Origin: an uncultured Thermococci archaeon
Lineage (GTDB): Archaea > Methanobacteriota_B > Thermococci > Methanofastidiosales > Methanofastidiosaceae
Assembly: GCA_964500005.1 (NCBI GenBank)
Contig: CAZCMP010000004.1
Span: 97,816 to 161,815 of the forward strand
Reading direction: 5' to 3'
Length of the DNA: 64,000 nt
The translations under genes and the position numbers were made by a program. Positions within the stretch are counted from its first letter, which is position 1, and each line of letters starts with the position of its first letter. The notes beneath the pieces were generated by a model. It was given only the letters and a program-made list of their open reading frames with translations. It searched no databases and had not been told where the DNA came from. Positions 902-49,366 of the stretch are shown in pieces.

Positions 902-2419
902 TTAATCCACAACTAGTTCCAACTCAACTATATCGGTCTTTCCTTTTCTATTGTATACAACTGCTTTTATTTGATAGTTTCCTTGGGGTACGTTTGGTGA
1001 CACAGTTAAAGTTAAAGTATATGTCCCTAAATTGTGCGCCTTTATTATCTGAGAAGCTGGATCTACCTTATAGGAAACTCCCTCCGGCAAGCCTTCAAAT
1101 CTTACACCAACGCCTGTTTGTGTTACAAATCCTCTGTTTTCTACTTGGGCAATTAAGCTTTGGGTTCCTGGTGAAATTTCTAGTGGTGCAATTACTTTAC
1201 CATCAAGTACTACGTTAGTTCCCCTGTCAATAAGTGAAACAATATTTCCATCAGGCTCTGCTTCGATTCCTGAATCACCTAACGAGATTATATTGCCGCC
1301 TATTGCTATTGGCCCTCTTAAGATTACCAATTGCTCTAAATCCAATAATGGGTATAACAGTATCGCGATAACCTTCTCTTTTGGCTCATCAGGCGGAGAG
1401 GAACAATCGCTTACTGTAACAGTCACCTTTGCTATGTTGGATGAATAATCGCCGTTTCTCACTGTGTAGCTGAATTCATAATTTCCAGGTTTGCCGGGTG
1501 CACAGTAGTAAACTTTGTCACCAGCCGGTGTGGCTGTGCCATCAGTAGCTGGGTCGACTACTGTTATTACGGGTGATGGCCCATAGTTTGAATCGTTACC
1601 AAGGACATACAGATTGGAGCAAGAGTTACTGCATACAGAAAATGAGTCATCGTTTGCAACTGGCGGTGTACCCGAGCTACAATCGTTTACCGTTACTGTT
1701 ACCTTTGCTTTGTTGGATGTATTTGCCCCATTTCTGACCGTGTAGTTGAAGTCATATGTTCCTGGTGTTTCTGGGGCGCAGTAGTAAATCTTGTCACCAG
1801 AAGGTGTGGCTGCGCCGCCAGTAGCTGGGTCGACTACTGTTATTACTGGTGAAGTGCCGTAGTTCGAATCATTAGCAAGGACATACAGATTAATGCAAGA
1901 GTTACTGCATACAGAAAATGAGTCTGGATTTGCAACTGGATTACTGGGGCAGTTAATATTTATGTTGACTTGTATGGTAATATTTTCTGGGCCACATCCC
2001 CCCTCCCCAAGCTTATGCGCAGTAAAGGTAAAAGAATCCTTAAGGCCACAATAGCTTGGATCTGTGGCAGTATACTGGATAGCTTGATTGTTAAAACGGT
2101 GCACAGTACCAGCAAGGCTATTACATGTTATCAAACCACATCCAAATGGTGCCCCAGTTGATATATTGGGGTCATCTATCTCATAATTTGAACTTCCAAG
2201 ACAATCAGTAATGTTATAATCATCAAATCTATTTATCAAATCTGCATTAATGTTAATTAGGATAGGTGTGTTTAAATTGGCGGTGATGAATCCATCAAAA
2301 ACAATTGGGAATGTGCATGGTGGGCATGTGGGCTTACCCCCTATCACGACTGCAAAGTTAGAAATAGTAGCTGAGATTAAAACTAATGTTATTAATATGG
2401 AAATTACTCCTTTTTTCAT
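902..2419 (-). CDS. Secreted Cys-rich protein with tandem cadherin/Ig-like (Big_9-type) domains and a C-terminal Ig-like domain
   Basis: GGAGG SD before ATG 2419 (MKKGVISILITLVLIS signal peptide); PVANxDSFSV...VLxND...YTV repeats. Confidence 0.75.
   Translation of the reverse strand: MKKGVISILITLVLISATISNFAVVIGGKPTCPPCTFPIVFDGFITANLNTPILININADLINRFDDYNITDCLGSSNYEIDDPNISTGAPFGCGLITCNSLAGTVHRFNNQAIQYTATDPSYCGLKDSFTFTAHKLGEGGCGPENITIQVNININCPSNPVANPDSFSVCSNSCINLYVLANDSNYGTSPVITVVDPATGGAATPSGDKIYYCAPETPGTYDFNYTVRNGANTSNKAKVTVTVNDCSSGTPPVANDDSFSVCSNSCSNLYVLGNDSNYGPSPVITVVDPATDGTATPAGDKVYYCAPGKPGNYEFSYTVRNGDYSSNIAKVTVTVSDCSSPPDEPKEKVIAILLYPLLDLEQLVILRGPIAIGGNIISLGDSGIEAEPDGNIVSLIDRGTNVVLDGKVIAPLEISPGTQSLIAQVENRGFVTQTGVGVRFEGLPEGVSYKVDPASQIIKAHNLGTYTLTLTVSPNVPQGNYQIKAVVYNRKGKTDIVELELVVD
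1388..1939. repeat. Intragenic tandem duplication, 2 x 276 nt (92 aa)
   Basis: gggtcgacta at 1551 and 1827; the two protein repeats align from PVAN to PVAN. Confidence 0.9.
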
Positions 2420-2493
2420 AATTCCTCCATTTCTAGTTAGTTCGGATGCAATATAGCATACTTGATAGATGTACATATATAAATAATTTGCGG

Positions 2494-2599: not shown

Positions 2600-4312
2600 T
2601 TAATCCACTATTAGATTAAACTCTACCCTGTCTGTGATTCCCCTTCTCGAATATGAAACTGCTTTTATCGGGTATGTTCCAGAAGGAGTTGTTGACGGAA
2701 CTGTTAAGGTTAGAGTGTATGTCCCAGTATTATGTCCCTTGATCTTCTGAGTTAGTGGTTCTATTGCAAATGTTACTCCTTGTGGCAATCCCTCTAATCT
2801 AACGCCTGCATCTATCTGAGTTAGGAAACCTTTGTTTTTTACTTGGACGATAAGGCTCTGTGTCCCCGGTACAATTTCTAGAGGAGAAACTACTTTCCCA
2901 CCAAAAATAACATCTGTTCCAGATGATGGTACTGTTAGTTGTACAATGTCTATGCCTGGGTAAAGTATTGAAGGCGGGAGGAGCTTCTTTTCCTCTTCAG
3001 TAATGCAATCATTAACGATCACAGTTACTGTTGCTGTGTTTGATGTTACCTCTCCATCTGTAAATGTATAGTCAAAGAAGTATGTTCCTGTTGTTTTGGG
3101 TGCACAGTATTTGATCTTGCCGTTAGATAATTCTGCTGTGCCTCCTGTTGGAGTTCCAATAAAATTGATCTGTGGTGATGCGCCCTTGTTAATATCATTA
3201 CTAAGGACGTCTATTGTAACACATGCTTCTTTGCAGACTTCTGCTGAGTCGGCATTTGCAATTGGTTGCTCACCGTTGTCATTTGAACAGATTATTCCTA
3301 TCACTACTTTGATAGTAATGGGGTCTGGTATATCCCCTCCGGCCCCAACTTTGTCTGCAAGAAATGTCAGCGTATCTGTTTGCCCACAGTATCCACTACA
3401 GTCTAGAATAGAATAGTCAATCTGGTTTCCTTGACCTGCAAAAACTGCTGTTCCGGGGTTTGGGTTAACAAGAAACATGCTCCCCTTATAGTTAGCTGTG
3501 GGATAACAAGTTCTGGCTGCTTCATTGACATTGATATAATCATATGTGGTGCTACCTACTATAATATCCCCAGTAGCGCAATTATAATCTACATAATAAG
3601 TACAATCTGGTATTGGCGGAGAATTACAAGTAACTGTTACATTAACTTGTACTGTCTTTCCTCCTGCAGTAAATGTAAAACTATCAGGTCCACTGTAACC
3701 TGAAACAGGGGTGTACCTAATCATTCTATTGCTAATTACAGATACGCTGCCATGAGATGGATTTGTATGGCTCTGATAATGATTATTATTAGCCGATATA
3801 CATGAGATTAAATCAAAATCGATGTTCTCATAACTGTCACAATTAACTGAAAAGCTATGGGTGCAATCTGCTCCTGGTGTTCCAGCTTGGATTGTTACTG
3901 TACTTGAAGAAGTTGCTACGCATGACGCCCTATCCCCGGGGGGTCCAGTAGATTCGGTAGCACTTCCAGTAAAATAGACTGTGCCTACTGACCCTGCCGT
4001 ATATATCCATGTAAAGTCCCTGTACTGGCCTACTGGTATGTCCTGGGTGCCAACAGGCGGACCCCCAGGAGGAGTAGCGGATCCAGTGTCTCCACTTGAT
4101 ACACTTATCGAGGGTTGGACACTAATCGCTGCGTTAGCTCCTGTGTTAGTGACTCTCATTGTCACAGTTATAGAATCCCCAATATCAACTGTTGAAGGAG
4201 TAGCGGATATTGATGCTGAAATAGTGGTATCTGGGGCCGCAAAAGCAAAACTAGAAAATACAGTTGAAATTAATACTAACATTACCATTATTGAGATTAT
4301 TTTATTTTTGAT
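2600..4312 (-). CDS. Secreted Ig-like/cadherin-like domain protein, paralog of 902-2419; likely non-AUG start at 4312/4315, first ATG at 4288
   Basis: Signal peptide; Big_9-like PIANADSAEVC...VLSND repeat; C-terminal ~110 aa clearly homologous to the neighbour. Confidence 0.75.
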   Translation of the reverse strand: MKNKIISIMVMLVLISTVFSSFAFAAPDTTISASISATPSTVDIGDSITVTMRVTNTGANAAISVQPSISVSSGDTGSATPPGGPPVGTQDIPVGQYRDFTWIYTAGSVGTVYFTGSATESTGPPGDRASCVATSSSTVTIQAGTPGADCTHSFSVNCDSYENIDFDLISCISANNNHYQSHTNPSHGSVSVISNRMIRYTPVSGYSGPDSFTFTAGGKTVQVNVTVTCNSPPIPDCTYYVDYNCATGDIIVGSTTYDYINVNEAARTCYPTANYKGSMFLVNPNPGTAVFAGQGNQIDYSILDCSGYCGQTDTLTFLADKVGAGGDIPDPITIKVVIGIICSNDNGEQPIANADSAEVCKEACVTIDVLSNDINKGASPQINFIGTPTGGTAELSNGKIKYCAPKTTGTYFFDYTFTDGEVTSNTATVTVIVNDCITEEEKKLLPPSILYPGIDIVQLTVPSSGTDVIFGGKVVSPLEIVPGTQSLIVQVKNKGFLTQIDAGVRLEGLPQGVTFAIEPLTQKIKGHNTGTYTLTLTVPSTTPSGTYPIKAVSYSRRGITDRVEFNLIVD

Positions 4313-4539
4313 AATAATCTACCTCCACTACTATTGGTTATCAATATTGTTAATAATAATTTTAAGTTTAAATGGTTTGCGGTTGTCGCAGTCTCTATCG
4401 TCAAACGACTTCAAAAATAAAAATCAGCCTCGAATCTAACCCGCAATAGATATAAAGCGTTTCGCCACTTTTCGTATCAAAGCACAGAAAAAGAATTGCG
4501 AGAAAAGACAAAACAGTTGAGATTTGGAGAGAGATTCTT

Positions 4540-4837: not shown

Positions 4838-5203
4838 TTGGATTACAAAGTTACGTTAGAAGTTCCAATTATTGTGAGGGATATAAAGACAGGCGAAGAT
4901 GCGATAAAGGTTGCGATGTCAAATGTTAATAAAAAGCTAAAAGCCGCTAAGCTTGATTATGTAAAGGTCGAGATTGGCATGTCGCAGTGCCCAAAATGTG
5001 GTGACTACTTTGAAAGCTCATTTTTTGTAGGCGATGTTTCCCTTGTGGGGATCTACCTTACACTGGACATATTTAACGCTGAAAACATAAAGCACGCAGA
5101 AAACATAGCAAAATCTGTCGTTGGAAAAGCGCTAAAGGACGTTCCTTTCAAGACGTTTGAGGTAAAGGAGCGGGTGGAAAAGGTCAGAAAGAAGCGTCGA
5201 TGA
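4838..5203 (+). CDS. DUF555 / UPF0212 family protein
   Basis: YKVTLEVPIIVRD...CPKCG...LVGIYLTLDIFNAE..HAENIAKSVVGKALKDVP; SD AGGTGAT before TTG. Confidence 0.8.
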   Translation: MDYKVTLEVPIIVRDIKTGEDAIKVAMSNVNKKLKAAKLDYVKVEIGMSQCPKCGDYFESSFFVGDVSLVGIYLTLDIFNAENIKHAENIAKSVVGKALKDVPFKTFEVKERVEKVRKKRR

Positions 5204-5849
5204 TGCCGGGATCTCCTATATCGTAATAGACTGATTCCCCCTCTTTTTTATAGGGGTGCCTCAGTAGCGTTGCTTTCCTCTTGTTGTTATTCTGCTCTTC
5301 CTTTTCAAGCTTAACGATCAGTTTGGACCAGTATTTTAGGACCTCCCCGCCGATGGGGACCTTCTCTTTGCTGCCAGAAACATCGTCGTAGACCTGGTTT
5401 GTGATCACTAAGGGTATGTTAAAATCTCTAGCAATCCGGGATAGAATCAATAGATCGTTACCAAGCTGCCTTGCTAGCTCCGTCCTCTTCTTGTGATCGT
5501 ATCCTTCTAGCCGGTACAGTGATACTAAAGAGTCAACACAAACAAAACCGATCCTTGTGCTCATTATCTTCTCAAGCTTTGCAACAGATTGCTGTTGGGT
5601 GGCATAGTCCCTTGGCTGGAAAACTATTATTTCCTCTAGGTTTTTTACACCCATAAGAGATAGCCTCTTTGGAGAAAATCCGCCTTCTGTGTCAATGAAG
5701 ACTGATTTTTTGTCTCGCAAGAGGGAGTACTTGCAACACATCAGGCATATCGTAGTCTTGCCTGTTGCATGCTCTCCATAAAACTGCGTTATGACCCCCT
5801 CTGGTATCCCGTCTATTAAAAGGTCCAAAGGGTTTCCGCCAAACTTTAT
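5184..5849 (-). CDS. radB: DNA repair and recombination protein RadB (start probably ATA 5849; ORF track uses GTG 5858)
   Basis: Walker A GEHATGKT, FIDTEGGFS, VDSLVSLYR, ITNQVY, GGEVLKYWSK. Confidence 0.9.
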   Translation of the reverse strand: MKFGGNPLDLLIDGIPEGVITQFYGEHATGKTTICLMCCKYSLLRDKKSVFIDTEGGFSPKRLSLMGVKNLEEIIVFQPRDYATQQQSVAKLEKIMSTRIGFVCVDSLVSLYRLEGYDHKKRTELARQLGNDLLILSRIARDFNIPLVITNQVYDDVSGSKEKVPIGGEVLKYWSKLIVKLEKEEQNNNKRKATLLRHPYKKEGESVYYDIGDPGIIDASF

Positions 5850-5936
5850 TTTAATCACCTTTAATACTACACCAATAAAACCTTAATTTATTTATAAAGT
5901 ATATTCCAACTCTCTGCTAAACAAACATAGAAAATC

Positions 5937-7245: not shown

Positions 7246-7368
7246 AATAAGAAAAGAAAAAAATAAATTTATTCTTTGTCTTTGTTTCCGAGCCCGAACT
7301 TCTTCATGATCCAGTCCATTGGGAGCGATTTCTTTGTTTCACAAACGACGTCAAGGTTGGCAAGGTAG
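7246..7368. repeat. Dispersed direct repeat, copy 1 of 2 (other copy from 16058)
   Basis: 33 nt identical (7246-7278 = 16058-16090), then about 90 nt of high similarity. Confidence 0.9.
7269..7367 (-). pseudogene. 3' remnant (32 codons) of a beta-propeller surface-protein paralog
   Basis: Translates to YLANLDVVCETKKSLPMDWIMKKFGLGNKDKE*, nearly identical to the C-terminus of 16081-17172. Confidence 0.85.
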
Positions 7369-8483
7369 TGCAAGTGGATGGACTAAGTGGGGAGCAGTAC
7401 AACGTTTTCATACCCAATCCACTTCCCCCAAAGATAGAATTTGATGATGATCTCGTGCTCGTTTTGTCAAAGGCGGAAGAGAAACTTGGTAAACTATCCG
7501 GAGTAGGCCTTACCCTTCCAAGCCCCAATCTCCTTATTGTGCCTTATCTAAGAAAAGAGGCTATAATGAGCACCAGGATAGAGGGGACAAGGATCTCCCT
7601 GCAAGAAGTGTTGCTGTCTGAAGCAAAAGAGAAGGAAGAGAAAACAAAAGATGCACAAGAGGTCATAAATTACATAAACACTGTTAATTATGCCCTAACT
7701 AAAATCGAAAATTCCCCCATCAATCTGGATCTGATAAAGGGCATGCATAAGGTTTTAATGGAAGATGTTAGGGGAAATGAAAAGGCGCCTGGAGAATTTA
7801 GGGAAGTCCAGAACTGGATTGGGTCTGAATTTTCCAAGGTTTCAGACGCCATTTTTGTCCCTCCAAATCCAGAAGCTGTCCCTAAATTAATGGAAGATCT
7901 AATCGATTATCTTAACACAGAGCATAATGTTCCGGTTCTTGTCAGGTGCGCATTGATGCATTACCAGTTTGAAACCGTCCATCCCTTCTGTGACGGTAAT
8001 GGCAGGATAGGGAGAAGCCTGATAACGGTCTACCTATGCAAGAAAAAGAAGATAATAAAACCCCTTTTGTACATCAGTGAGTTTTTTGAAAAGCACAGAA
8101 TGGAATACAATGAACTCTTTTTGAGGACCGGCCAAACAGGTAAATTTGAGAGCTGGATTAAGTTTTTCTTGAAAGCTATTGAAGTCCAATCCGAGGACGC
8201 ATTGTTAAGGGCGCATAAACTTTTGGAGCTAAGGGAAGCTTACAGAAAGAGGGTCCAGAGCGAAGCGCAGTCTAGTGACATTCTAAACATAATCGATTAC
8301 TTGTTTTCAAATCCGTTTATTACGGTCAAGAAGGCCCAACTGATCACAGGTGTTACATATCCAACGGCGAAGAAGTATATGGAAAAATTAGCTAAATATG
8401 AAATCTTAAAAGAAACAAAGCGCCTGCAAAGAGAAAAAACATTTGTGGCCCACGAGATTTACGAGATAATCAAGGATATCTAA
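7368..8483 (+). CDS. Fic family protein (class II with C-terminal wHTH), possibly 5'-truncated
   Basis: Fic motif HPFCDGNGRIGR; inhibitory helix STRIEG; FIPNPLPP N-terminus. Confidence 0.9.
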   Translation: MQVDGLSGEQYNVFIPNPLPPKIEFDDDLVLVLSKAEEKLGKLSGVGLTLPSPNLLIVPYLRKEAIMSTRIEGTRISLQEVLLSEAKEKEEKTKDAQEVINYINTVNYALTKIENSPINLDLIKGMHKVLMEDVRGNEKAPGEFREVQNWIGSEFSKVSDAIFVPPNPEAVPKLMEDLIDYLNTEHNVPVLVRCALMHYQFETVHPFCDGNGRIGRSLITVYLCKKKKIIKPLLYISEFFEKHRMEYNELFLRTGQTGKFESWIKFFLKAIEVQSEDALLRAHKLLELREAYRKRVQSEAQSSDILNIIDYLFSNPFITVKKAQLITGVTYPTAKKYMEKLAKYEILKETKRLQREKTFVAHEIYEIIKDI

Positions 8484-9946: not shown

Positions 9947-10792
9947 TTAGTTTTTCTTTGTATCGTAGATTTTTCCAAGTTGTTTTGTTATCCTATCTAG
10001 TATAATTGCCAAAAACACAATAGACAGTCCCGCTTCTATGGAATCTACCAAATTGTACCGTTGTAGTCCCGATATAATGACTTCTCCGAGCCCTCCTGCT
10101 CCAATAAATCCTGCTATTACAACCATAGAAAAGGCTAACATTATAGTCTGATTTATCCCCATCATAATGGAAGGCAGTGCAAGAGGAACCTCTATTTTAA
10201 GAAGTAGTTGGCGAGATGTCGCCCCAAATGCTTTTCCAACTTCAATCATTTCCTTAGAAACATGCTCAAGACCTAAACTTGTTAATCTTATAGCCGGTGG
10301 CATTGAAAATATGACTGTGGCAATAACCCCTGGAACGACGCCTATTCTAAAAAATAGTACTGCCGGTATGAGGTATGATAAGGATGGAAGTGTTTGCATC
10401 AAATCAAGTATTGGTTCTATTATTGTAGCAAAAGTTTTTGATCTCGCTTTCAATATTCCTAAGGGCACCCCGATAAAAAGTGCAATAATTGTAGCCACCA
10501 AAACTAAAGACAGTGTTTCTAGTGTGGCGTTCCATAAATCCATGCTAATAATCAGGACCAAACTAATAAAGGCAAATATTGCCACTTTGATCTTTGCCGT
10601 TTTCCAGGATATTAGCGCAAATATTGCAATTAGCACTATTGGCGGTATAAAGACGAGGGCTGAATAAAAGAACTCAACAACTGCGGATATTATTGACCTT
10701 ATTATCTCGAAAATAATTGAGAAATTTTCTCTCAAGAAGTTAATAATACTAACTATTGGCTCCCCTATTGGTATTTGTGGAATCTCAATTAT
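9947..10792 (-). CDS. proW: Glycine betaine ABC transporter permease (start probably ATA 10792; ORF track uses GTG 10801)
   Basis: PILDLMQTLPSLSYLIP, EAA-like EVGKAFGA, PSIMMGINQTIMLAFSMVVIA. Confidence 0.92.
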   Translation of the reverse strand: MIEIPQIPIGEPIVSIINFLRENFSIIFEIIRSIISAVVEFFYSALVFIPPIVLIAIFALISWKTAKIKVAIFAFISLVLIISMDLWNATLETLSLVLVATIIALFIGVPLGILKARSKTFATIIEPILDLMQTLPSLSYLIPAVLFFRIGVVPGVIATVIFSMPPAIRLTSLGLEHVSKEMIEVGKAFGATSRQLLLKIEVPLALPSIMMGINQTIMLAFSMVVIAGFIGAGGLGEVIISGLQRYNLVDSIEAGLSIVFLAIILDRITKQLGKIYDTKKN

Positions 10793-11978
10793 GTGAATCA
10801 CCCCTTAGAATATCTATTGCAGCCTTCTCATTTGCATGCCCCAAAAGAACCCCTTCTTCGTCAACAACAGGTATGGTCGTTTTAGAGGTAATTAACAAGG
10901 GCAAAGCTTGTGCAAGAGTGACAACACTTTCTACAGAATTACATTTTTTGATGAATTTTTCAACTCTTACATTTTTTCCAGACTTTTCCGCCTCTAGTTC
11001 GGATAAAAAAATAATCCCCAAAAGTTTTTGGGCTTCGTCTACAACGAAAGAGTAAGTTACCCTATTCTTTTTTAATTTATTTATTGCGTCTACTGCCTTA
11101 ATATCCGGGGTAAGTACCACCCTATTTTGTTTTGTTATATAATCAACTTTTATTACATGATGTCTATCAACATTTTGCACAAATGTTTTAACAAACTCTG
11201 TTGCAGGATTAACTAGAATATTCTCAACTGTATCAATCTGGACAAGGACCCCTTCTTCGTTTAAAATTGCAACTCTGTTGCCCAGTTTTACTGCTTCGTT
11301 TAGATCGTGAGTTATAAAGATTATAGTTTTTTTCATCTTTCTTTGAATTCTTAATAATTCCTCTTGCATATTATCTCTTATCAAAGGATCTAATGCGCTA
11401 AAAGGTTCATCCATTAGAAGAATATCCGGGTCAATAGCTAAGGCTCTAGCAAGCCCAACTCGCTGCTTCATTCCCCCACTAAGTTCATCGGGCATGCTAT
11501 TTTCCCAACCTGCAAGCCCTACTGTTTTTAATATTTTCTTACCGGTATTCTCCATATTCTCTTTAGGAACTCCTTGGATTTCAAGGCCCAAAACAACATT
11601 ATCGAGAATAGATCTGTGTGGTAGGAGGCCAAATCTCTGAAAAACCATTCCAAATTTCTTTCGCCTCAATTCAATCAATTCATTTTGATTAAGATTTAGA
11701 ATGTTTATTTTTTCGTTTCCAATTAGTACTTCACCCTTTGTAGGGAGTATCAAACGATTAATACATCTTATAAGTGTTGATTTGCCACTCCCTGAAAGGC
11801 CCATTATGACAAATATTTCTCCTTTATTGATTTCAAGATTTATATCTCTTAAGGCAACAACTTGCCCTGTTTTCTCTTTTATTTGGTTTCTAGTTAAACC
11901 CTTCTCAATCAACGGAAAAGCTTTCTCTGGGTTTTTACCAAATATCATATATAAATTGCTAATTTTTACATCCAACAT
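10785..11978 (-). CDS. proV: Glycine betaine ABC transporter ATPase with CBS domains
   Basis: GLSGSGKS, LSGGMKQR, LLMDEPFSALDP, FITHD, C-terminal CBS pair. Confidence 0.95.
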   Translation of the reverse strand: MLDVKISNLYMIFGKNPEKAFPLIEKGLTRNQIKEKTGQVVALRDINLEINKGEIFVIMGLSGSGKSTLIRCINRLILPTKGEVLIGNEKINILNLNQNELIELRRKKFGMVFQRFGLLPHRSILDNVVLGLEIQGVPKENMENTGKKILKTVGLAGWENSMPDELSGGMKQRVGLARALAIDPDILLMDEPFSALDPLIRDNMQEELLRIQRKMKKTIIFITHDLNEAVKLGNRVAILNEEGVLVQIDTVENILVNPATEFVKTFVQNVDRHHVIKVDYITKQNRVVLTPDIKAVDAINKLKKNRVTYSFVVDEAQKLLGIIFLSELEAEKSGKNVRVEKFIKKCNSVESVVTLAQALPLLITSKTTIPVVDEEGVLLGHANEKAAIDILRGDSHN

Positions 11979-47824: not shown

Positions 47825-48178
47825 TTAAACTTTAGTCCATTTTAACTCAGACATCTTTGAAGAGTCTGAATTCTTTACTTTTGCAGAGAAGTAGTAACTT
47901 GTAGGACAAATATTACATGCCTCACAAACTGCATTTCCAGACTCCACTTTCTTGACTTCAGAAAGCTCTATTTTGTAAACATTGCTATAGTATGCAATTA
48001 TGAGTTCACTATCTGTTGGCTCTTTGATAAACTGAATATTTCCTTCAGCATACCACTTTTCCCAAGGTGTCTCTTCGCACTGCATAGGCTGAAACTTCAT
48101 CGTTATTGGCGCATTACTTGTACATCCTAAGGAGAGAATTAACAACAACAAAGGGATAGCTAATAGGAACTTCTTCAT
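47825..48178 (-). CDS. Hypothetical lipoprotein
   Basis: Lipobox LSLGC; CEACNIC motif. Confidence 0.75.
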   Translation of the reverse strand: MKKFLLAIPLLLLILSLGCTSNAPITMKFQPMQCEETPWEKWYAEGNIQFIKEPTDSELIIAYYSNVYKIELSEVKKVESGNAVCEACNICPTSYYFSAKVKNSDSSKMSELKWTKV

Positions 48179-48251: not shown

Positions 48252-49211
48252 TTAATTTTTCCTCTTGTATAGCATTGCTCCCAGTGCTACTGCTATTATT
48301 AAGAATACTGCAGTCAAACCCTGGAATATTACCAATTGATTTGAAATTGAGGATATCTCTGATTTGAGCTCGGAAATTTCTTTTGATTCAGTTTGAATCT
48401 CCTTAATTGAGCTAAATATCTGGTCTGCATTGTATTGAATCATTTCTGCTATTGTATCTGTTCCGGGGATAGCTTCTGGGAAATTTGAGAAAACAACATG
48501 TCTTCCTCCAATCTCTTCAGCCATTTGAGCGCCGAGGGTAGTTCCACTCTGAAGATTATCTATAACAAATGATACGCCGTCTTCCTTTCCTTTTACAACA
48601 AGGTTCTGGACAGTCTGTACAGATAGTGTTTCAGGCGGCTGGTATGCTTCAACTACCTGAAGACCAATCCATTCTGAAAAAGGTTTCTGCCATGCCATCA
48701 CAATTGCTTTGTAATCTGAGATTCCAAGCTCATTTGCCTCAGCCAATATTTTCTCATTTAACTCGTCTAGCTCTTTTGAAACATCGGCAGCATTTTTTTC
48801 ATAGTAAGATTTGTTCTTTGGATCAATTTCAATCAACGCATCCTTAATTGAATTGATCTTTGCTTTGGCAAGAGGTGGTGTTCCCCACGGCCCTTGAAGC
48901 AAGAGTTTTTTTACATCCTTATTTTCAGAAGCACTTACCATATTATCAAGCCAAGGCTCAACTCCATGGTATACTACAAGTGATGCGGTATTTATTTCAG
49001 ATACTACGCTAGGCCTTACATCAAAATGATCAGGGCATATACCTGGCTGTACCAAAGAGATGGCATCTACTTTATCCCCGCCGACTTCTTCTACAAAATA
49101 TTTCATCGTAGTTGTGGTGCAGATTACTTTTATTTTTTCTGCAGAGGAGAATGTAGGCATTGAGGATAAAACCAGTGCTAAAATAAAAACGGATACTATT
49201 ATTTTCTTTAT
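48252..49211 (-). CDS. ZnuA/TroA-like solute-binding protein with C-terminal anchor; likely ATA start at 49211 (first ATG 49160)
   Basis: KVICTTT...EEVGGDKV...PDHFDVRP..A.LVVYHG; LIEIDP.N..YY.N; C-terminal TM + KRKN. Confidence 0.8.
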   Translation of the reverse strand: MKKIIVSVFILALVLSSMPTFSSAEKIKVICTTTTMKYFVEEVGGDKVDAISLVQPGICPDHFDVRPSVVSEINTASLVVYHGVEPWLDNMVSASENKDVKKLLLQGPWGTPPLAKAKINSIKDALIEIDPKNKSYYEKNAADVSKELDELNEKILAEANELGISDYKAIVMAWQKPFSEWIGLQVVEAYQPPETLSVQTVQNLVVKGKEDGVSFVIDNLQSGTTLGAQMAEEIGGRHVVFSNFPEAIPGTDTIAEMIQYNADQIFSSIKEIQTESKEISELKSEISSISNQLVIFQGLTAVFLIIAVALGAMLYKRKN

Positions 49212-49366
49212 AATAATCCCTCCTAGTGATACGAATTTAATATTCGTGCTACTAATAAACTTTAGATATTATTTATAAAGGTTTTGGTTTTTAGGTAATT
49301 TCAATAGTAAGAATGTACTAAGTAAATTATATAAGCAAGTTACTATAAATTAGGGTGGTGATTTAC

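What the first reader, a model, noticed from the sequence alone, without database searches (positions are those of the whole stretch)
49155..49225. ZnuA-like gene: complete signal peptide lies upstream of the first ATG and begins at ATA
The sequence is GGAGG-gattatt-ATA-AAG-AAA-ATA-ATA-GTA..., giving (M)KKIIVSVFILALVLSSMPTFSSA. No ATG, GTG or TTG occurs in frame between the upstream stop and 49160. This is the cleanest of the four non-AUG cases, because the ATG form would lack an export signal.
Basis: seen in the sequence. Interest (0 to 1): 0.62.

Follow-up and report, generated by a model that had tools for sequence, protein, structure and literature searches.

The report
Conserved ATA/ATT/ATC start codon, archaeal gene
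A surface metal-binding-type protein gene of the uncultured methanogen Methanofastidiosum has no ATG/GTG/TTG in front of its export signal and most likely starts at an ATA codon placed behind a strong ribosome-binding site. The layout is kept across the genus and recurs in at least two other genes of the window, so gene callers routinely truncate these proteins.

Summary
On the minus strand, AGGAGG (49224-49219) is followed by G ATT ATT ATA AAG AAA. No in-frame ATG/GTG/TTG lies between the stop at 49271-49269 and the ATG at 49160. No canonical start occurs in any frame between the TATA box and the ATA.

The organism is Candidatus Methanofastidiosum, an archaeon. Sixteen distinct orthologous loci keep the same layout. 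The codon before Lys-Lys is ATA (9), ATC (4) or ATT (3), never ATG. In many loci an in-frame TAG sits four codons upstream. One locus lacks the internal ATG.

The 16 codons between the ATH (ATA/ATC/ATT) codon and the ATG vary like coding sequence. Theionarchaea orthologues start with Met in the same alignment column. ATA 49211 sits at the modal ribosome-binding-site spacing of the window's ATG genes (7 nt). DNA and RNA contigs from independent runs read ATA.

Two more genes in the window show the same thing. RadB starts at ATA 5849, and five lineages carry ATA or ATT there; in one of them ATT is the only codon that can serve. A Big_9 surface protein has ATC at 4312 where relatives have ATG.

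Verdict: this is a real, conserved near-cognate start. The exact codon (ATA versus the neighbouring ATT) and the protein's N-terminus have not been shown experimentally.

The parts
48252..49211 (-). Proposed full coding sequence of the ZnuA-family (PF01297) substrate-binding protein: 319 codons plus stop, starting at ATA 49211-49209. Gene callers give only 48252-49160 (302 aa).
   Evidence: PF01297, E 2.2e-35, 122.9 bits; most close homologues are called at 302 aa, others at 307, 315, 321 or 353 aa depending on accidental ATG/TTG codons.
49209..49211 (-). ATA, the most likely initiation codon, presumably read as Met by the initiator tRNA.
   Evidence: Seven nt after AGGAGG, the modal spacing. 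This position is ATA/ATC/ATT in 16 of 16 distinct orthologous loci. It aligns with the Met of Theionarchaea orthologues. DNA and RNA contigs read it as ATA.
49212..49217 (-). Two further near-cognate codons, ATT ATT, between the SD and the ATA. They are alternative or additional initiation sites.
   Evidence: ATT 49214 has spacing 4, seen once among canonical genes. This position is AAT or AAC in 3 of 16 lineages, and the first position is AAT in one lineage and ATG in one (L033).
49219..49224 (-). Shine-Dalgarno sequence AGGAGG. In relatives it is AGGAGGCGAT or AGAGGTGAT, complementary to the canonical archaeal 16S 3' end.
   Evidence: GGAGG conserved in 13 of the 16 aligned sequences; GGGGG in L005, AGAGG in L007 and a gapped GGAGG in the L010 group; the same motif family precedes the ATG genes of the window.
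49140..49211 (-). Signal peptide, 24 codons: n-region M-K-K, h-region IIVSVFILALVLSS, c-region MPTFSSA, with predicted cleavage after Ala24 (SSA|EK).
   Evidence: maximum Kyte-Doolittle hydrophobicity over 12 residues is 3.44, against 1.01 for the ATG form; coding-type substitution pattern. The cleavage site is inferred from the -3/-1 rule; no predictor was run.
49158..49160 (-). Internal ATG (Met18), the start chosen by ORF finders. It lies inside the c-region of the signal peptide.
   Evidence: It is replaced by ACA in L020.
48270..48335 (-). C-terminal transmembrane anchor (L293-L314), followed by the cytoplasmic tail YKRKN.
   Evidence: Kyte-Doolittle over 19 residues is 2.49. It is conserved in orthologues.
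49269..49285 (-). Archaeal BRE/TATA-like promoter element AAAACCTTTATAAATAA. The predicted transcription start is near 49250, giving a 5' UTR of roughly 38 nt that contains the SD.
   Evidence: The CTTTATA core is invariant and the rest nearly so in the 16-sequence alignment. The transcription start is inferred from the usual -26/-27 TATA position and is not mapped.
49224..49254 (-). Conserved palindrome TAGT-N3-ACGAAT-N5-ATTCGT-N3-ACTA, with a variable centre. It is a candidate operator for a metal-responsive repressor and overlaps the predicted transcription start.
   Evidence: arms conserved, centre free. (the only occurrence in the window; 0.35 expected at up to 2 mismatches). (no significant RNA fold, z = -1.19).
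5184..5849 (-). RadB, a second gene with a conserved ATH start: AAGGTGAT TAAA ATA(5849) AAG TTT GGC.
   Evidence: Five lineages have ATA or ATT 3-4 nt after GGTGAT. In L049 an in-frame TAA four codons upstream leaves ATT as the only near-cognate codon. Other Methanofastidiosia orthologues have Met at that position.
2600..4312 (-). Big_9 surface protein, a third case: GGAGGT AG ATT ATT ATC(4312) AAA AAT AAA, giving (M)KNKIISIMVMLVLISTVFSSFAFA|AP.
   Evidence: Relatives L034, L035 and L039 have ATG AAA AAT AAA at exactly this position. The ATC reads identically in contigs of four runs dated 2017-2025.

Best explanation
The gene encodes an exported, C-terminally membrane-anchored substrate-binding protein of the ZnuA/TroA family in Candidatus Methanofastidiosum.

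Proposed mechanism:
- The mRNA is leadered, with a TATA box at 49280 and a 5' UTR of about 38 nt (inferred).
- The 30S subunit is positioned by a strong Shine-Dalgarno duplex (AGGAGG, extended in relatives) (inferred).
- Initiator Met-tRNA pairs with a near-cognate AUH codon through its first two bases. ATA 49211 is the most likely codon; the adjacent ATT 49214 is possible (inferred).
- The product, M-K-K-IIVSVFILALVLSS-MPTFSSA|EK..., is exported by the Sec pathway, cleaved after Ala24 and held on the cell surface by the C-terminal helix (inferred).
- Initiation at AUH is expected to be inefficient and sensitive to the fidelity factor aIF1, so the codon probably sets a low, tunable translation level (inferred).

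Shown here: the sequence layout; its conservation across 16 lineages; the coding-type evolution of the segment upstream of the ATG; the absence of any canonical start; the match to the SD spacing of ATG genes; and the same arrangement in RadB and, in this strain, a Big_9 surface protein.
For: - Sequence and frame.
- Family and organism.
- Twenty related loci, 16 distinct sequences, with TAG/TAA-GGAGG-CG-ATT-ATT-ATH-AAR-AAA; ATH at the third position in 16 of 16, never ATG; L020 lacks the internal ATG.
- Codon-position variability of 10/3/14 in codons 2-17.
- Theionarchaea orthologues start with Met in the same column.
- SD spacing of 7 equals the mode.
- ATA is read in DNA and RNA contigs.
- Strong SDs (at least 6 nt) with no canonical start codon at spacing 4-10 occur, across the window and all loci, only in front of this gene, RadB and the Big_9 gene, plus one antisense artefact.
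- RadB.
- Big_9: ATC in the window against ATG in relatives.
- Literature: AUA/AUC/AUU initiate at 1-2% of AUG in E. coli and Met is inserted (bioRxiv 10.1101/063800). Archaeal aIF1 discriminates against AUU (PMC4705826). Archaeal SD-led complexes scan locally (PMC6237735).
Against: - There is no protein N-terminus, ribosome footprint or transcription-start data. The RNA evidence is unstranded assembled contigs.
- Three adjacent ATH codons make the exact start ambiguous.
- One lineage (L033) has ATG two codons upstream, only 2 nt after GGAGG. Four sampled loci (L010, L016, L017, L023; one distinct sequence) have an ATG at codon 5. A shorter or longer N-terminus is therefore tolerated in some strains.
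- AUH initiation by archaeal ribosomes in vivo has not been documented in the literature I could search.
- The absence of ATG at the start position in 16 lineages is suggestive, not statistically strong.
- No formal signal-peptide prediction was run.
Confidence: 0.8

Rival explanations
1. Translation starts at a near-cognate codon, but at ATT 49214 (or ATT 49217) rather than ATA 49211. That gives M-I-K-K... or M-I-I-K-K.... Alternatively, all three codons are used.
For: All three are one mismatch from AUG. Spacing 4 occurs in a canonical gene of the window and in relatives (GGAGGAATT ATG). L033 carries ATG at the first of the three positions. Local scanning is reported for archaeal initiation complexes (PMC6237735).
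Against: The second position is AAT or AAC in 3 of 16 lineages, and the first is AAT in L020, while the third is ATH in 16 of 16. Spacing 7-8 is the mode, while spacings of 4 and below are rare. Orthologues align Met with the third position.
Confidence: 0.15
2. The protein starts at the internal ATG 49160, or at the CTG/TTG codon 49175, and has no signal peptide. On this reading the upstream conservation reflects regulatory DNA or RNA.
For: It is the first canonical start, and most gene callers choose it.
Against: Substitutions upstream follow a coding pattern. L020 has ACA instead of the ATG. Codon 13 is CTG, TTG or TTA, that is, synonymous Leu codons. There is no SD in front of either codon. 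Orthologues have signal peptides. The C-terminal helix plus KRK tail implies an extracellular domain. The ATG form has no hydrophobic N-terminus.
Confidence: 0.03
3. The gene has lost its start codon and is a pseudogene, or is barely expressed.
For: AUH codons are poor starts in tested systems (10.1101/063800). There is no partner ABC permease or ATPase gene nearby.
Against: The full-length frame is intact, and protein identity ranges from 74 to 95% across at least 16 lineages, with synonymous-dominated change. The SD and promoter are conserved. RNA-type runs hold the region. The same start type occurs in RadB.
Confidence: 0.02
4. The ATA is an artefact (sequencing or assembly error) or is converted to AUG in the RNA by editing.
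For: None was found.
Against: Four runs, DNA and RNA-type, read ATA. Twenty independent assemblies have ATA/ATC/ATT. ATC and ATT cannot become AUG by any known base deamination.
Confidence: 0.005

Closest known systems
AUU start codons of bacterial infC (IF3) and pcnB
   Same: A near-cognate AUH codon placed behind a Shine-Dalgarno sequence, read by the initiator tRNA, and conserved rather than accidental. The efficiency of such codons depends on the start-codon fidelity factor.
   Different: Those are bacterial, use AUU specifically, and infC is autoregulated by IF3. Here the host is an archaeon whose fidelity factor is aIF1. The third base drifts freely among A, C and U. The genes concerned (a surface binding protein, RadB, a Big_9 protein) have no evident link to translation. 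No regulation has been shown.
AUA/AUU/AUC start codons of mitochondria (and some reduced bacterial genomes)
   Same: AUN codons serve as regular start codons for several genes of one genome.
   Different: Mitochondria pair this with a reassigned AUA (Met) and a modified tRNA-Met. Here ATA is plainly used as an Ile-type codon inside the same signal peptide (codons 4-5 vary among I, L, V and M). Nothing is known about the initiator tRNA of this lineage.
Canonical archaeal SD-led initiation, e.g. Pyrococcus abyssi aEF1A mRNA (AUUUGGAGGUGAUUUAAAUG; PMC6237735)
   Same: The same SD family (GGAGGUGAU), the same distance (8 nt there; 7-8 nt here) and an AU-rich spacer. The layout is that of an ordinary strong archaeal ribosome-binding site.
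   Different: The codon in the P-site position is AUA/AUC/AUU instead of AUG.
ZnuA/TroA/PsaA cluster A-I metal-binding proteins (PF01297; Synechocystis ZnuA 1PQ4, E 5.9e-13)
   Same: Pfam family membership and overall domain length. The GxCPxHFDxRPS motif lies at the position of the first metal-ligand motif (DPHxYEP).
   Different: The second and third His ligands of Synechocystis ZnuA are not aligned with His. The protein is anchored by a C-terminal helix rather than a lipid. The gene stands alone, without permease or ATPase genes. The ligand is therefore uncertain.

Membership tests
Genes initiated at a near-cognate AUH (AUA/AUU/AUC) start codon | No ATG/GTG/TTG in frame upstream of sequence that is demonstrably coding | tested here: met
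   In many relatives an in-frame TAG lies four codons before the ATH. No canonical start occurs in any frame of the predicted 5' UTR.
Genes initiated at a near-cognate AUH (AUA/AUU/AUC) start codon | The segment between the proposed start and the first canonical start evolves as protein-coding sequence | tested here: met
   variable columns at codon positions 1/2/3 are 10/3/14; Ser codons use all four TCN synonyms; changes are hydrophobic-for-hydrophobic. Pairwise codon differences are 511 synonymous against 367 non-synonymous.
Genes initiated at a near-cognate AUH (AUA/AUU/AUC) start codon | A ribosome-binding site at the distance used by canonical genes of the same genome | tested here: met
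   AGGAGG plus 7 nt, against a modal spacing of 7 (range 4-9) for SD-led ATG/GTG/TTG genes of the window.
Genes initiated at a near-cognate AUH (AUA/AUU/AUC) start codon | Conservation of the near-cognate codon in orthologues | tested here: met
   ATA 9, ATC 4, ATT 3 of 16 distinct sequences, spanning 74-95% protein identity.
Genes initiated at a near-cognate AUH (AUA/AUU/AUC) start codon | Protein N-terminus, toeprint or ribosome footprint at that codon | not testable with these tools
   Only assembled, unstranded RNA contigs were available.
infC-type autoregulated AUU genes | The gene product, or a factor it controls, sets start-codon stringency and so feeds back on its own translation | not tested
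   No evidence either way. A link through the zinc knuckle of aIF1 (PMC6237735) is pure speculation.
ZnuA/TroA cluster A-I substrate-binding proteins (PF01297) | Profile match above the curated threshold | tested here: met
   122.9 bits against a cut-off of 29, covering residues 29-265; 40 PDB relatives.
ZnuA/TroA cluster A-I substrate-binding proteins (PF01297) | The three metal-coordinating His residues of ZnuA (Synechocystis 1PQ4: in the DPHTYEP, DPHIW and FHPSW motifs) | tested here: not met
   pairwise alignment. In the first motif the His aligns with Asp, with a His one residue later (CPDHFDVRP). In the second motif the PH is deleted. In the third motif the His aligns with Val. This is sequence alignment only; no structure was made.
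ZnuA/TroA cluster A-I substrate-binding proteins (PF01297) | Genetic linkage to ABC-3 permease and ATPase genes (znuB/znuC) | tested here: not met
   Neighbours are a 117-aa lipoprotein-like protein, an FAD oxidoreductase, ApgM, a bactofilin-like membrane protein and pentose-phosphate enzymes.
Sec-type cleavable signal peptides | A positively charged n-region, a hydrophobic h-region of at least 10 residues, and small residues at -3/-1 | tested here: met
   MKK, then IIVSVFILALVLSS (Kyte-Doolittle over 12 residues 3.44), then S-S-A|E. This is by inspection and a hydrophobicity calculation; no SignalP-type predictor was on hand.

The most novel reading that the evidence does not exclude
Methanofastidiosum (and perhaps the wider Methanofastidiosia) treats AUA/AUU/AUC as a regular fourth class of start codon on SD-led mRNAs. 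At least three unrelated genes in this 64-kb window use it, roughly 3-5% of genes. Two of them (RadB and the ZnuA-like protein) are fixed across the genus, with the third base drifting freely.

This would imply a lineage-specific relaxation of start-codon proofreading, through aIF1, the initiator tRNA or 16S P-site features. It would also imply a set of genes whose translation responds to the activity of that fidelity factor. For the metal-binding protein this could couple translation to zinc through the Zn knuckle that many archaeal aIF1 proteins carry.
Probability: 0.4. Interest if true: 0.8.

Novelty: new member of a known kind. Interest (0 to 1): 0.62.

Why it matters
Archaea are described as using AUG, GUG and UUG (PMC4705826). 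Near-cognate sites seen by ribosome profiling in Haloferax volcanii were set aside as possible false positives (PMC7261190). In E. coli only two AUU genes are confirmed (10.1101/063800).

Here a near-cognate ATA/ATC/ATT start is conserved through a whole archaeal genus in two unrelated genes, and appears in a third gene of this strain.

- Annotation. Prodigal-type and NCBI-pipeline calls truncate these proteins: 302 instead of 319 aa here, with the export signal lost, and 185-209 instead of about 221 aa for RadB. Localisation and function predictions for these uncultured methanogens inherit that error.
- Biology. This gives a concrete, testable set of natural mRNAs for asking how stringently archaeal initiation complexes (aIF1/aIF1A/aIF2) reject third-position mismatches when the SD is strong. 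It also lets one ask whether weak starts are used to set expression levels.

Tried and rejected
- Sequencing error or RNA editing: rejected. Contigs of four runs read ATA, and relatives carry ATC and ATT.
- A start further upstream: rejected. Relatives have an in-frame TAG at the SD, and the upstream ATG called in P0024/L006 lies upstream of the conserved TATA box.
- An upstream small ORF, reinitiation, or a frameshift from another frame: rejected. The predicted 5' UTR contains no ATG/GTG/TTG in any frame.
- A leaderless mRNA starting at the ATA: unlikely. The only conserved TATA element is about 69 nt upstream, and the AT-rich centre of the palindrome is not conserved.
- An RNA hairpin or riboswitch in the leader: no support. 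The fold z-score is -1.19, the palindrome arms show no compensatory changes, and L007 breaks them without compensation.
- A blastp screen for conservation upstream of the first canonical start was uninformative. Close relatives also conserve non-coding DNA, so nearly every gene was flagged.
- ABC permease at 10792 (GGGTGAT TCAC ATA, spacing 8): left undecided. An in-frame GTG at 10801 is available and no orthologous DNA was obtained.
- The GTG at 5858 as the RadB start: rejected as the conserved start. It is part of the SD and is out of frame in the other four lineages.
- P0106 was uninformative because its 5' end is disrupted by an IS element.
- No tRNA-Met gene and no aIF1 gene lies in the sequence held, so the machinery could not be examined.
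- Literature searches found nothing on ATH starts in Methanofastidiosa or other archaea.
Full report
**1. What is there**

The finding lies on the minus strand. Reading 5'->3', the elements are, in order:
- a conserved archaeal promoter-like element, AAAACCTTTATAAATAA (49285-49269);
- a palindrome, TAGT-N3-ACGAAT-ATTAA-ATTCGT-N3-ACTA (49254-49224);
- the ribosome-binding (Shine-Dalgarno, SD) motif AGGAGG (49224-49219), one G, then ATT ATT ATA AAG AAA ATA ATA GTA TCC GTT TTT ATT TTA GCA CTG GTT TTA TCC TCA ATG CCT ACA TTC TCC TCT GCA GAA...

The in-frame stop upstream is TAA at 49271-49269. From there to the ATG at 49160 there is no ATG, GTG or TTG in frame. Between the TATA box and the ATA there is none in any frame.

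The ORF finder reports only 48252-49160 (302 aa). From ATA 49211 the product has 319 residues. It matches Pfam ZnuA (PF01297) over residues 29-265 with E 2.2e-35.

**2. Whose gene it is, and how relatives look**

The closest proteins come from Candidatus Methanofastidiosum genome bins. More distant ones (42-50% identity) include proteins named as Theionarchaea.

Gene callers disagree on the start of the close homologues. Most give 302 aa; others give 307, 315, 321 or 353 aa. That disagreement is a symptom of a missing canonical start.

I fetched the DNA of 20 related Methanofastidiosum loci from genome and metagenome collections, plus one further locus. They yield 16 distinct upstream sequences, the window included.

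- All have the same layout: (T)AGGAGG-CG-ATT-ATT-ATH-AAR-AAA, where H is A, C or T.
- The codon just before Lys-Lys is ATA in 9, ATC in 4 and ATT in 3 sequences. It is never ATG.
- In many loci the triplet TAG that overlaps the SD is in frame. The reading frame then opens only four codons before the ATH (TAG GAG GCG ATT ATT ATH), so no start further upstream is possible.
- The internal ATG that ORF finders use is ACA in locus L020.
- Codon 13, which one caller used as a TTG start, is CTG in the window and TTA in L008. It behaves as an ordinary Leu codon.

**3. Is the upstream segment translated?**

Across the 16 sequences, the 16 codons between the ATH and the ATG have variable columns at codon positions 1, 2 and 3 in the ratio 10: 3: 14. 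The two Ser codons run through all four TCN synonyms. The remaining changes are mostly I/V/L exchanges that keep the stretch hydrophobic. That is the signature of a translated signal-peptide core, not of a regulatory element.

The Theionarchaea orthologues begin MKK-, MNR-, MKR- or MKT-, followed by a hydrophobic core. MAFFT places their Met in the same column as the ATA-encoded residue.

With the ATA start, the N-terminus reads:
- n-region: M-K-K;
- h-region: 14 hydrophobic residues (maximum Kyte-Doolittle hydrophobicity over 12 residues, 3.44);
- c-region: S-S-A|E.

From the ATG the maximum is 1.01 and there is no hydrophobic core.

The C-terminus carries a 22-residue hydrophobic helix followed by YKRKN. 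By the positive-inside rule this puts the binding domain outside the cell, which requires an N-terminal export signal.

**4. Which codon?**

I aligned the SDs of the window's canonical genes to AGGAGGTGATC, the complement of the conserved archaeal 16S 3' end (my assumption; no rRNA gene lies in the window). I then measured the distance from the last G of GGAGG to the start codon.

| Spacing (nt) | Canonical genes |
|---|---|
| 7 | 10 |
| 8 | 3 |
| 9 | 3 |
| 6 | 1 |
| 4 | 1 |

Two further genes were outliers, at 12 and 16 nt.

- ATA 49211 sits at 7 nt (8 in relatives).
- ATT 49214 sits at 4 nt (5 in relatives).
- ATT 49217 sits at 1-2 nt.

The third position is ATH in 16 of 16 lineages. The second is AAT or AAC in three. 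The first is AAT in one and ATG in one (L033).

ATA is thus the best-supported codon. The neighbouring ATT cannot be excluded, and local scanning of archaeal initiation complexes (PMC6237735) would allow more than one to be used.

**5. Not an artefact**

Contigs from one DNA run and three RNA-type runs of sludge and wastewater samples cover 49209-49211 without any difference. These contigs are unstranded assemblies. They show that the region is present in RNA libraries and unedited, but they do not map the 5' end.

**6. The same thing elsewhere in the window**

I scanned all long frames for a strong SD that has no canonical start at the right distance. Besides this gene, only one real gene came up: a Big_9 surface protein at 4312-2600, minus strand.

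*Big_9 surface protein.*
- The sequence is GGAGGT AG ATT ATT ATC AAA AAT AAA, giving (M)KNKIISIMVMLVLISTVFSSFAFA|AP.
- Relatives have GGTGA-GATT(AT)-ATG AAA AAT AAA, with ATG exactly where the window has ATC.
- The ATC reads identically in contigs of four runs from 2017 to 2025.

*RadB (5849-5184, minus strand).*
- An in-frame GTG inside the SD had masked this case.
- Many Methanofastidiosum RadB proteins are called truncated, at 185-211 aa.
- DNA from five lineages shows GGTGAT or GGTGGT, then 3-4 nt, then ATA or ATT, then AAR TTY/ATT GGN GGN AAY CCT.
- The GTG is out of frame in the other four lineages.
- In L049/L050 an in-frame TAA leaves only GGT GAT TAC ATT before the conserved Lys-Phe-Gly-Gly. 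ATT is the only near-cognate codon among them.
- RadB proteins from more distant lineages (45-51% identity; one is named Candidatus Methanofastidiosia archaeon) start MKTGC..., MDIGC... or MEIGC..., with Met at the position of the ATH.

*Specificity of the scan.* Repeating the orphan-SD scan over every fetched locus returned only the ZnuA-like and RadB orthologues and one antisense artefact.

*A fourth candidate.* An ABC permease (ATA 10792, spacing 8) remains open, because GTG 10801 is also available.

**7. Mechanism proposed**

*Shown:* the layout, its conservation, coding-type evolution of the upstream segment, and spacing equal to that of ATG genes.

*Inferred:*
- a leadered mRNA starting near 49250;
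- SD-anchored 30S binding;
- initiator Met-tRNA pairing with AU of AUH and a third-position mismatch;
- Sec export, cleavage after Ala24, and surface anchoring by the C-terminal helix.

In E. coli, AUA/AUC/AUU give 1-2% of AUG activity and still put Met at the N-terminus (10.1101/063800). In Sulfolobus, aIF1 rejects AUU complexes (summarised in PMC4705826). The start is therefore probably weak and dependent on aIF1.

Both signal-peptide cases carry the strongest SD type of the window (GGAGG). That fits compensation for a weak codon.

Free drift among A, C and U at the third base, with no G in 16 + 5 lineages, suggests that ATG is not favoured there. The number of independent changes is too small for a real test.

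**8. What the protein is**

It belongs to the ZnuA/TroA family by profile. In the pairwise alignment to Synechocystis ZnuA (1PQ4), only the first ligand motif is recognisable (CPDHFDVRP against DPHTYEPKP). The second His lies in a deleted dipeptide, and the third aligns with Val.

There are no permease or ATPase genes next to it. I would therefore not call it a zinc-binding protein. "ZnuA-family surface binding protein of unknown ligand" is as far as the evidence goes.

The conserved palindrome over the predicted transcription start looks like a repressor operator. It is unique in the window. This fits a metal-regulated gene, but it is untested.

**9. Comparison and novelty**

Near-cognate AUH starts are a known kind. 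They are listed in translation table 11, occur in infC and pcnB, and are standard in mitochondria. So the gene is a new member of that kind.

What I could not find described is such a start conserved through an archaeal genus, in several unrelated genes, with an interchangeable third base. Whether this reflects relaxed proofreading in the lineage is the most novel reading still open. I give it about 0.4.

**10. Limits**

All evidence is comparative. No protein, ribosome or transcription-start data exist for this uncultured organism in what I could reach. No signal-peptide predictor was available. The initiator tRNA and aIF1 of the lineage could not be inspected.

Noticed in passing
window 5184-5860 (minus strand): RadB most likely starts at ATA 5849 (AAGGTGAT TAAA ATA AAG TTT), not at GTG 5858, which is part of the SD. 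Four other Methanofastidiosum lineages have ATA or ATT at this place with the GTG out of frame. Many database RadB entries of the genus are truncated to 185-211 aa.
   Followed up: yes
window 2600-4326 (minus strand): A Big_9/Ig-like surface protein has ATC at 4312, behind GGAGGT and two ATT codons, where relatives have ATG. ORF finders start at ATG 4288 and cut off the charged n-region of the signal peptide. The ATC is identical in contigs from four runs dated 2017-2025.
   Followed up: yes
window 9947-10801 (minus strand): An ABC permease (BPD_transp_1) has GGGTGAT TCAC ATA(10792) at SD spacing 8, inside the 3' end of the upstream gene. GTG 10801 has no SD. This is a possible fourth ATH start, but no orthologous DNA was obtained.
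   Followed up: partly
window 49224-49254 (minus strand): A palindrome, TAGT-N3-ACGAAT-N5-ATTCGT-N3-ACTA, lies between the TATA box and the SD. Its arms are conserved in 15 of 16 lineages and its centre is free. It is unique in the window. It is a candidate operator of a (metal-responsive?) repressor over the predicted transcription start.
   Followed up: partly
window 48252-49211 (minus strand): The ZnuA-family protein lacks two of the three His ligands of Synechocystis ZnuA in pairwise alignment. It has conserved Cys residues (VICTTT, GICPDH), a C-terminal transmembrane anchor, and no neighbouring permease or ATPase genes. Its ligand is uncertain.
   Followed up: partly
window 902-2476 (minus strand): The listed ORF starts at ATG 2476, but a GGAGG AATT ATG at 2428-2417 suggests the real start is ATG 2419. 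The same GGAGGAATT ATG arrangement (spacing 4) precedes the Big_9 paralogues in L036 and L039.
   Followed up: no
window 7251-8483 (plus strand): A 371-aa ORF has 39 open codons upstream of its first GTG, with no SD and no canonical start there. It may be truncated at the N-terminus or have an unrecognised start.
   Followed up: no
window 47825-48178 (minus strand): A small conserved gene lies directly downstream of the ZnuA-like gene. It encodes a 117-aa protein with a lipoprotein-like signal (MKKFLLAIPLLLLILSLGC) and no Pfam match. It is syntenic in relatives (L033).
   Followed up: no
L033 1424-1432: One lineage of the ZnuA-like gene (proteins P0006-P0008) has GGAGGCG ATG ATT ATC AAG. The ATG is two codons upstream of the conserved ATH and only 2 nt after GGAGG. 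It may be an emerging canonical start.
   Followed up: partly
L036 1-1001: In the genome bin carrying LNJC01000004.1, a Big_9 paralogue has lost its 5' end next to a DDE transposase gene (IS insertion). Its database protein (P0106) is therefore a fragment.
   Followed up: no
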